Source of the DNA: Obrimoposthia wandeli
Taxonomy: Eukaryota
Assembly (NCBI GenBank): GCA_977020255.1
Contig: CDROCS010001534.1
Span: forward strand, 434,001 to 498,000
Direction of reading: 5' to 3'
Length of the DNA: 64,000 bases
Below, in pieces: positions 3,780 through 4,716 of this stretch. The position numbers and the translations under genes were made by a program. Each line of letters opens with the position of its first letter. Positions within the stretch are counted from its first letter, which is position 1. The notes under the pieces are model-generated. The model had not been told where the DNA came from, did not search any database, and saw only the letters and a program-made list of their open reading frames with translations.

Positions 3780-4716
3780 AGAAGGTCACTGAAAACATAT
3801 TTTTTAAAATAGATGTCACATAAAATGGCGAGAACTGGTTTAGAAATGTTAAACGGAGATACAACAGTCGATTTTGGTTTTGAAAATGTATTTTAGAAAT
3901 CGGAAAAACAATGATAATCCAATGAGACATTACAAACTGAAAGCACCAACGTGCCCATTCATTATAAGATTGAGAGTTGCAAATGAAGCATAATTTCAAA
4001 CAGGAAAAACACCTGATTTTGACAACAGTGACAAGATTCCAGAAGAAGAAACATCCTAAATAGAAGGTGTTGTAATAAAAAATAGTCAAATTGAAGATTT
4101 GCGAGAAATAAACATAGGTGTTAAACAATATCGAGAATTAATATTTGAAGATACAAGACTTAAAAAATTGACCAAAAAGAACTTTTTGCTACAAAAAAGA
4201 ATGGTAGAGATGTAATTAAATGCTACAAGTGTAAAACAGAGCAAATTATTGATAGATATACTCTCGAGTTACCTAAGAAAGGTTTACATCACGAATATTG
4301 TAATTTTACAAACAAAAATAAGCAAGAAGAACCAACAGAATGTATAATCAAATATTGAGTTACGAAAAAAGAAATTTTGGCTCAACAAGATATACTGGTA
4401 GTGTCTTTCGTGAGAAGATTATATCCGTATGAAGCAGAGGGAATCAGAGAATTGATAGAATTAAAAATGAAAACAACACGTGATGGATACAGATAAACCT
4501 TTGAATTATAACGAGATAAAAATGACAGTACAATCAAATTAAAAAAAAAAGCACGTACATGAATTAGAATACATCTTAGAAGACCCAGAATGTGCAGTAT
4601 GCATGGTTAACAAAGTAGACGTAGCTTTCCTGCCTTGTAGACATGTAAGAACATGTTTGAGATGTGCAAACGAAATGGTAGCTTGTCCGATTTTTAGAAC
4701 AATAATTGATCGATAA
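3780..4716 (+). pseudogene. Inhibitor-of-apoptosis (IAP)-like cassette: BIR, degenerate BIR, UBA, RING-HC
   Basis: BIR1 (3780-3965): ..MARTG..V-R-[C>F]-W-F-[C>stop]-KCILRN[W>R]KNNDNPMRH[H>Y]KLKAPTCPFI, giving Cx2Cx16Hx6C spacing after repairing two 1-nt frameshifts. BIR2-like: EDTRL..DVIKCYKC..HHEYCNF (4140-4307). UBA-like: IRELIELKMKTTRDGY (4395-4530). RING: CAVCMVNKVDVAFLPCRHVRTCLRCANEMVACPI[F]R (4591-4716). Confidence 0.8.

What the first reader, a model, noticed from the sequence alone, without database searches (positions are those of the whole stretch)
3780..4716. Full IAP domain string (BIR-BIR-UBA-RING) embedded in the retroelement polyprotein
BIR1 recovers exact Cx2Cx16Hx6C spacing once single-base lesions are reversed (TTT<TGT, TGA<TGY, CGG<TGG, TAC<CAC). 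KMKTTRDGY parallels the KILTTGENY segment of the cIAP UBA domain, and the RING has IAP-type spacing. BIR-UBA-RING order is that of metazoan XIAP/cIAP/DIAP2, which points to capture of a spliced host IAP mRNA (no introns seen). The RING reads in frame into protease 2, so the IAP would be released by proteolysis.
Basis: partly seen in the sequence, partly recalled or inferred. Interest (0 to 1): 0.85.

Follow-up and report, generated by a model that had tools for sequence, protein, structure and literature searches.

The report
Retrotransposon's anti-death gene shared with Mavericks
A broken copy of a giant retrotransposon, likely a planarian Burro element, carries the remains of an inhibitor-of-apoptosis gene already reported for Burro, and the closest relatives of that gene in this genome sit in Maverick DNA viruses, so the two kinds of mobile element likely got it from one source or passed it between them.

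Summary
The domain string is real and its core is already known. Window 577-10804 is a decayed, LTR-less piece of a giant Ty3/gypsy element with Burro architecture. Unbroken natural copies in the same genome encode fusion protein, protease, BIR, degenerate BIR, UBA-like bundle, RING, second protease, RT, RNase H and integrase in one 5,100-5,500-residue frame. Pfam sees one BIR and the RING. The second BIR and the UBA show up only through profiles and predicted folds. Changes shared among copies show purifying selection on all four domains (dN/dS 0.18-0.26), while private changes are near neutral. Burro's BIR-RING 'B-IAP' is published and reported to be anti-apoptotic (seen second-hand only). 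Not found in my searches: the same odd IAP lineage occurs as stand-alone genes in Maverick/Polinton elements of this genome, forming one clade (100/100) apart from ordinary animal IAPs, and no host gene of this type turned up. Direct capture of a host mRNA is therefore unproven, and the direction of transfer is open.

The parts
577..10804 (+). Decayed internal fragment of a Burro-type giant Ty3/gypsy element; no gag and no LTR found; internal deletions
   Evidence: blastn 72-80% to natural copy G000:C901; no match to that copy's LTR or first 1,123 aa
1810..2960 (+). Env/fusion glycoprotein region (best Pfam stretch; coordinates approximate), broken
   Evidence: Monjiviricetes_fusion E 2.4e-94 in natural copy, projected by tblastn
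3234..3527 (+). Aspartic protease 1 (DTGS), stops at 3258 and 3501
3759..3969 (+). BIR1: canonical Cx2Cx16Hx6C in natural copies; here a stop at 3810, a frameshifting loss of about 26 nt near 3890 covering two Cys ligands, and His ligand lost at 3931
   Evidence: Pfam BIR E 3.6e-10 in natural copy; mapping; fold Z 8-9 to BIRs
4120..4301 (+). BIR2-like degenerate BIR (Cx2Cx18Hx3C); four ligands readable here, 1-nt frameshift near 4179
4356..4526 (+). UBA-like helical bundle; stops at 4356, 4494, 4509
4579..4740 (+). IAP-type RING with tail; last Cys ligand lost at 4693, stop at 4714; preceded by a frameshift near 4544
   Evidence: Pfam E 4.5e-10
4843..5118 (+). Aspartic protease 2 (DTGA), stop at 5026
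5734..7700 (+). RT, RNase H, integrase (Ty3/gypsy order), broken
9878..10237 (+). Separate accessory RING ORF in the element's 3' region
   Evidence: Pfam zf-RING_2 E 9.3e-9; 62% identical match downstream of the polyprotein in 3 of 3 natural copies

Best explanation
This is a dead copy of a giant retrotransposon, likely a planarian Burro element, whose polyprotein carries an inhibitor-of-apoptosis cassette (BIR, degenerate BIR, UBA-like bundle, RING) between two proteases, and active copies likely cut that cassette free to keep the host cell alive. Shown here: the architecture, the unbroken frame in natural copies, purifying selection on all four domains and both proteases, and one clade formed with stand-alone IAP genes of Maverick/Polinton elements of the same genome. 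Inferred: the element's protease cuts on both sides, at the C-terminal side likely at a conserved Tyr-Pro bond 15 residues after the last RING Cys, which would leave a tail close to the 13 residues of ordinary IAPs. The freed protein would act mainly as a RING ubiquitin ligase on caspases or their activators, since BIR1 keeps only part of the usual peptide-binding groove and BIR2 has lost it. The cassette descends from one old intronless IAP lineage that both kinds of mobile element now carry. Most likely it was captured once and then passed between them; the direction is unresolved, and today's shortened Maverick versions cannot be the direct donor.
For: Natural frames of 5487, 5145 and 5132 aa with Pfam order zf-CCHC, ubiquitin-like (weak), fusion, protease, BIR, RING, protease, RT, RNase H, integrase, DSPc. 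One copy has ~2.4-kb LTRs (96.4%), TG...CA ends and a 4-bp flanking duplication. 110 of 119 scored matches to the BIR2-RING-protease stretch have no internal stop. Over 81 copies, dN/dS of variants shared by 3 or more copies is BIR1 0.26, BIR2-like 0.18, UBA-like 0.18, RING 0.18, PR1 0.12, PR2 0.15, RT 0.04; for private variants of these domains it is 0.74-1.07. Folds match BIR and XIAP-UBA. Aromatic residue and Pro of the Tyr-Pro pair are kept in 76 of 81 and 76 of 80 copies, and conservation falls after it; 119 of 142 canonical tails are 13 aa. Maverick context: A32 ATPase, rve+chromo, weak capsid hit, PolB. 39 of 43 non-Burro IAP loci have Maverick flanks and 0 of 43 a Burro protease. Tree: family clade 100/100 against 36 canonical IAPs; Burro outside the family is rejected, p-AU 0.031. 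Literature: PMC6431247 section 7; PMC13465017 passages citing Lee et al. 2026.
Against: No Burro1/GYPSM1 sequence was available, so membership rests on architecture and the host is inferred. The Burro UBA has no stand-alone sequence signal (0.5 bits); fold Z values of 4.8-7.2 are in the range the tool calls middling, and the second model's alignment held three canonical IAPs. The RING folded poorly in both models (pLDDT mostly under 60). Burro+Maverick as sisters is neither recovered nor rejected (p-AU 0.235), and branches are long. P0002, of unknown context, branches first and has a canonical UBA and groove residues, so a host gene of this type may exist and have been captured twice. Cleavage, ligase activity and expression were not tested. 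Aromatic-Pro protease preference and groove numbering are recalled, and the polyprotein has 19 aromatic-Pro pairs.
Confidence: 0.72

Rival explanations
1. The retrotransposon reverse-transcribed a spliced host IAP mRNA on its own, and the Mavericks captured the same host gene independently.
For: The cassette is intronless. Burro keeps a fuller BIR2 and a longer N-terminal match to P0002 than either Maverick family does. P0002 has a canonical UBA (33.9 bits) and acidic groove residues and branches first, as a host gene might.
Against: No such host gene among scored hits of four genome searches; the only non-mobile-looking BIRs seen were survivin-like and BIRC6-like by my reading (L074, L075). 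These searches score only 88-150 of 8,000-20,000 candidates, so a gene split into small exons can be missed. Mobile members group to the exclusion of P0002 at 97/86, 89/84 without the long row.
Confidence: 0.33
2. The cassette is a real ubiquitin ligase but serves the element mainly by tagging antiviral or silencing proteins, or by aiding particle release, not by blocking apoptosis.
For: BIR1 has Arg and Asp where 276 and 249 of 408 canonical BIR motifs have acidic/Gln and aromatic residues; BIR2 is degenerate. The element carries other ubiquitin-related modules.
Against: PMC13465017 reports that the Schmidtea Burro1 B-IAP protects stem cells from caspase-mediated apoptosis (second-hand; primary paper not held).
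Confidence: 0.2
3. The segment is a functionless passenger or a chance motif match.
For: The window copy itself is dead.
Against: Pfam and PDB hits down to E 5e-15; purifying selection; 80 of 80 copies tested keep it beside a protease.
Confidence: 0.02

Closest known systems
Burro1/GYPSM1 B-IAP of Schmidtea mediterranea (Jurka 2007 and Grohme 2018 via PMC6431247; Lee et al. 2026 via PMC13465017)
   Same: Giant gypsy-like LTR element, one ~5,000-aa frame, env in frame before the protease, ubiquitin-like motif, BIR plus RING in the polyprotein, very many copies.
   Different: In the passages I saw it is described as BIR + RING only. Here a degenerate second BIR, a UBA-like bundle, a protease on each side and dual-specificity phosphatase domains after the integrase are shown. 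BCL2, MATH, ankyrin and dUTPase were not detected by my scans. No direct sequence comparison was possible.
XIAP / cIAP1-2 / DIAP2-type IAPs
   Same: BIR-BIR-UBA-RING order; BIR1 and RING motifs; best PDB sequence hit is cIAP1 3t6p (E 5e-15) with collinear BIR, UBA-region and RING pieces.
   Different: Two BIRs, the second with Cx2Cx18Hx3C spacing; peptide groove partly lost; no Met-Gly-Phe loop (motif recalled); fused in a polyprotein; separate long-branched clade.
IAP genes of Maverick/Polinton (adintovirus) elements
   Same: Adintovirus IAP homologs are reported (PMC8502044, one passage). Two Maverick families in this genome carry collinear relatives, 32-38% identical to the Burro cassette.
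   Different: They are stand-alone 301- and 341-aa frames ending 18 residues after the RING. BIR2 is shortened (341 family) or nearly lost (301 family). A shared lineage with a retrotransposon was not found in my searches.

Membership tests
Burro giant Ty3/gypsy elements | LTR element with PR-RT-RH-IN order and giant size | tested here: met
   Pfam order; copy C901 about 24 kb, ~2.4-kb LTRs, TG...CA, 4-bp duplication; shorter than the >30 kb quoted for Schmidtea
Burro giant Ty3/gypsy elements | Single ~5,000-aa polyprotein with gag at the N-terminus | tested here: met
   5487-aa open frame with CCHC knuckle; weak Retrotrans_gag hit upstream in copy C1084 (E 0.005)
Burro giant Ty3/gypsy elements | env/fusion gene in frame between gag and protease | tested here: met
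   Monjiviricetes_fusion E 2.4e-94
Burro giant Ty3/gypsy elements | BIR (and RING) inside the polyprotein | tested here: met
Burro giant Ty3/gypsy elements | Ubiquitin/SUMO-like, BCL2-like, MATH, ankyrin, dUTPase-like modules | tested here: inconclusive
   Ubiquitin-like weak (E 0.045; E 0.009); the others not detected by single-sequence scans; they were originally found by HHpred, not available here
Burro giant Ty3/gypsy elements | Sequence or RT-tree relationship to Burro1-4; triclad host | not testable with these tools
   No reference sequence held; organism names are coded
IAP (BIRC) proteins | At least one BIR with Cx2Cx16Hx6C | tested here: met
   Natural copies: Pfam above cut-off; ligands kept in 76-77 of 78-79 copies; broken in the window copy
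XIAP/cIAP-type IAP | Second canonical BIR | tested here: not met
   No Pfam hit; spacing Cx2Cx18Hx3C; BIR-derived by profile and fold only
XIAP/cIAP-type IAP | UBA domain before the RING | tested here: inconclusive
   No Pfam UBA hit; 0.5 bits alone, relatives 11-34 bits; best fold match XIAP UBA, Z 4.8 and 6.0
XIAP/cIAP-type IAP | IAP-type RING with a free C-terminal tail | tested here: inconclusive
   RING met; a free tail needs cleavage, only predicted
XIAP/cIAP-type IAP | Caspase inhibition / E3 activity | not testable with these tools
   Reported for Schmidtea B-IAP, second-hand
Maverick/Polinton (carriers of the stand-alone relatives) | Protein-primed PolB, rve integrase, A32 ATPase, capsid genes, terminal inverted repeats | tested here: met
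   Pox_A32, rve, Chromo, weak DJR (E 0.0097), DNA_pol_B_2; PolB piece 94% identical to the 1202-aa frame of C2440; inverted ends. The 341-aa family copies examined show no PolB between their 4-kb inverted arms
Maverick/Polinton (carriers of the stand-alone relatives) | Adenain-type protease and 6-bp target duplication | tested here: inconclusive
   Ends printed but no clear duplication read; protease not looked for specifically

The most novel reading that the evidence does not exclude
One anti-apoptotic IAP gene has been traded between a reverse-transcribing, env-bearing element and Maverick DNA viruses inside planarian genomes. The regeneration-supporting B-IAP would then be of mobile-element rather than direct host origin, and the animal's BIR-UBA-RING IAP function would come largely from thousands of mobile copies of two unrelated virus-like classes.
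Probability: 0.4. Interest if true: 0.7.

Novelty: new member of a known kind. Interest (0 to 1): 0.42.

Why it matters
The IAP-in-Burro finding is known, so the window copy adds only a decayed example. Three additions matter. First, the cassette is a four-domain IAP under selection throughout, not just BIR+RING. Second, a specific cut site is predicted that would switch the RING on. Third, the same lineage sits in abundant Mavericks of the same genome. If Maverick IAPs are expressed, they could buffer or confound knockdowns of Burro's IAP, and they would show a cell-survival gene moving between a retroelement and a DNA virus.

Tried and rejected
Pfam on the three window frames finds only the RING. 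Word-indexed protein searches with the natural cassette gave nothing at near length or longer length; the profile search added two proteins. No genomic context was found for P0003, P0154 or the 301-aa Maverick IAP in viral or metagenome contigs (one weak RING-only hit, L161, not pursued); the alignment query had no conserved stretch to search with. The ESM Atlas gave only generic BIR+RING clusters. Earlier scan notes: nothing. Foldseek gave only weak E-values for the BIR2-UBA-RING model (best 4.8e-3). Loci L087-L090 looked like a possible host context but are truncated, frameshifted Maverick-type copies; L168-L170 were fetched and not analysed. Lee et al. 2026 is not held under PMC id, DOI or PubMed id, nor was a PMC id I recalled for Grohme 2018. 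Species naming from ORF length was rejected: 5487 aa stop-to-stop does not match the 5,140 quoted for D. tigrina. No complex prediction was run.

Full report
Setting. The window is G000:C1534:434001-498000 of a 1.35-Gb genome, about 30% GC. Bases 577-10804 match a natural element copy (G000:C901) at 72-80% DNA identity, starting at residue 1124 of its polyprotein, with internal deletions and no match to its LTR. The window copy is a truncated, decayed member of an older subfamily (81.6% identity over aligned codons).

What the element is. A protein search with a natural open stretch scored 119 of 27,202 candidates; 110 of the 119 have no internal stop and three lie in frames over 5,000 aa. Pfam on two of these gives zf-CCHC, weak ubiquitin, Monjiviricetes fusion (E 2e-94), aspartic protease, BIR, RING, aspartic protease, RT, RNase H, integrase and dual-specificity phosphatase. 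Copy C901 has ~2.4-kb LTRs at 96.4% identity, TG...CA ends and a 4-bp flanking duplication. This fits the description of planarian Burro elements in PMC6431247 (section 7 read in full): giant, one ~5,000-aa frame, env in frame before the protease, BIR noted by Jurka in 2007. [quoted passage not shown] The planarian host and the Burro label are inferred from architecture; BCL2, MATH, ankyrin and dUTPase modules were not detected.

The observation. In the window only the RING is detectable with stops read as X (E 4.5e-10). Mapping to C901 places BIR1 at 3759-3969, BIR2-like from 4120, UBA-like at 4356-4526 and RING at 4579-4740, between proteases at 3234-3527 and 4843-5118. Breaks: frameshifts near 3890, 4179 and 4544; stops at 3810, 4356, 4494, 4509, 4714, 4828 and 4834; His ligand of BIR1 and last Cys of the RING lost.

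Second BIR and UBA. Pfam finds neither in natural copies. An alignment with relatives shows a conserved Cx2Cx18-19Hx3C preceded by a BIR-like N-terminal motif. Against profiles built from 148 canonical IAPs retrieved, Burro BIR2 scores 11.1 bits (1000 shuffles: 99th percentile 4.6, two at or near this level, 14.1 and 11.0). The UBA region scores 0.5 bits in Burro, 11-13 in Maverick relatives and 33.9 in P0002 (shuffle maximum 3.3). A model built without canonical IAPs matched BIRs at residues 31-116 (Z up to 9.0), cIAP1 BIR3-UBA at 163-312 (Z 6.5), and, as best hit for the bundle alone, the XIAP UBA (Z 4.8, rmsd 2.6, 57 aligned). A second model of BIR2-UBA-RING, whose alignment included three canonical IAPs, had IAP/BIR chains at ranks 1-13 and the XIAP UBA at rank 14 (Z 6.0, rmsd 2.0). 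These Z values are middling and the RING folded poorly in both models. Together they support a degenerate BIR and a UBA-derived bundle, not canonical ones.

Selection. In 81 loci aligned to C901, single-base codon variants were counted per column. Variants in three or more copies give dN/dS 0.26 (BIR1), 0.18 (BIR2-like), 0.18 (UBA-like), 0.18 (RING), 0.12 and 0.15 (proteases), 0.04 (RT) and 0.08-0.43 (linkers). Variants private to one copy give 0.66-1.39. The cassette was thus maintained while the lineage was active and decays after insertion. Caveats: variants are counted, not events, and loci were chosen by similarity.

The Maverick link. A Pfam BIR search of the genome scored 150 of 12,110 candidates. 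The top two look like survivin- and BIRC6-type host BIRs (my reading of the sequences). The other 28 fetched belong to stand-alone 341- and 301-aa IAP families or fragments of them, collinear with the Burro cassette, 32-38% identical to it, ending 18 residues after the RING. Their neighbours are an A32 ATPase, rve integrase with chromodomain, capsid-like genes and protein-primed PolB, with inverted ends. 24 of 28 and 15 of 15 such loci have at least 300 bp of Maverick flank and none has a Burro protease, whereas 80 of 80 Burro loci have one. The four exceptions are truncated Maverick-type copies. The best library hits to the Burro cassette include P0002, P0003, P0006, P0011, P0119 and P0154, unnamed stand-alone proteins of the same type whose context I could not find. 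A 200-column tree with 36 of 84 eligible canonical IAPs, drawn at random, puts the family in one clade (100/100), with P0002 first, then Mavericks, then Burro with the metagenomic proteins. P0119 was left out as partial. In a smaller set without the long row P0011, placing Burro outside the family is rejected (p-AU 0.031) and Burro+Maverick is not rejected (0.235). No flatworm host IAP is known to be in the sample, and branches are long. Burro keeps a fuller BIR2 than either Maverick family, so present-day Mavericks are not the direct donor. Four genome searches showed no host gene of this type among their scored hits, which is weak evidence given the swamping by repeats.

How it likely works. 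Shown: the cassette lies in frame between two selected proteases. Inferred: after translation the protease cuts out the IAP. Ordinary IAP RINGs end 13 residues after the last Cys (119 of 142), and a free tail is needed for RING dimerisation (recalled). In Burro a Tyr-Pro bond, a type that retroviral proteases cut (recalled), lies at residue 15-16; the aromatic residue is kept in 76 of 81 copies and the Pro in 76 of 80, with conservation dropping after it. It is one of 19 aromatic-Pro pairs in the polyprotein, so this is a prediction. BIR1 keeps an acidic residue at one groove position but has Arg and Asp at two others where most canonical BIRs have acidic/Gln and aromatic residues, pointing to ligase-based rather than groove-based caspase control. 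The benefit would be survival of the cell in which the element is expressed.

Known and new. IAP in Burro is known. IAP homologs in adintoviruses are known (PMC8502044, one passage; its supplementary figures were not seen and might include flatworm cases). Maverick expansion in Dugesia is reported, with no occurrence of 'IAP' or 'Burro' in the main text (10.64898/2025.12.11.693146, passages; supplements closed). PMC8532177 (passages) shows BURRO1 and Polintons as piRNA targets. Eight full-text searches (listings only unless named above) returned no paper linking Burro and Maverick IAPs, but the key primary paper is not in the library, so novelty of that link is unverified.

Verdict. A real feature and a member of a known kind. 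Interest 0.42, carried by the Maverick link, the degenerate extra domains and the testable cut site.

Noticed in passing
G000:C609:145755-160039 (L104-L106) and G000:C777:600240-614146 (L107-L108): Maverick-derived ~14-kb elements with ~4-kb inverted arms (99.7-99.9% identical), each arm holding an intact 341-aa IAP frame; ATPase, integrase and capsid-like genes between the arms, no PolB seen inside.
   Followed up: partly
L065:1685-10000 minus strand (natural copy C901, residues about 4270-4400 and a second stretch): Dual-specificity phosphatase domains (Pfam DSPc E 4e-40, two stretches) fused after the integrase in the polyprotein; not mentioned in the Burro section I read. This part is deleted in the window copy.
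   Followed up: no
window 3234-3527 and 4843-5118: Two aspartic proteases, only 24-27% identical, flank the IAP; both keep the catalytic motif and are under purifying selection.
   Followed up: partly
window 9878-10237: Accessory RING ORF downstream of the polyprotein; natural copies hold three diverged tandem matches to it.
   Followed up: partly
window 35100-37500 and 48599-52062; L071-L073 upstream: Maverick ATPase, integrase and capsid-region fragments; a 341-type IAP lies about 10-11 kb upstream of the window (L072). The window's long inverted repeat (38312-39979 / 48471-50138, 97%) lies in this Maverick-rich part.
   Followed up: partly
window 11708-15307 versus 39470-44633: A diverged inverted duplication (74-93% identity in blocks) of unknown repeat type.
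   Followed up: no
window 8321-8720: Short frames resembling a mariner/Tc1 transposase N-terminus by eye (recalled motif), where the retroelement match is interrupted.
   Followed up: no
G000:C3084:3828-18325 (L088-L090): Three tandem ~7.15-kb units, each with a truncated Maverick-type BIR and a capsid-like fragment.
   Followed up: partly
L074 (G000:C694:435434) and L075 (G000:C6834:49196): Likely host survivin-type and BIRC6-type BIR exons, by my reading of the sequences.
   Followed up: no
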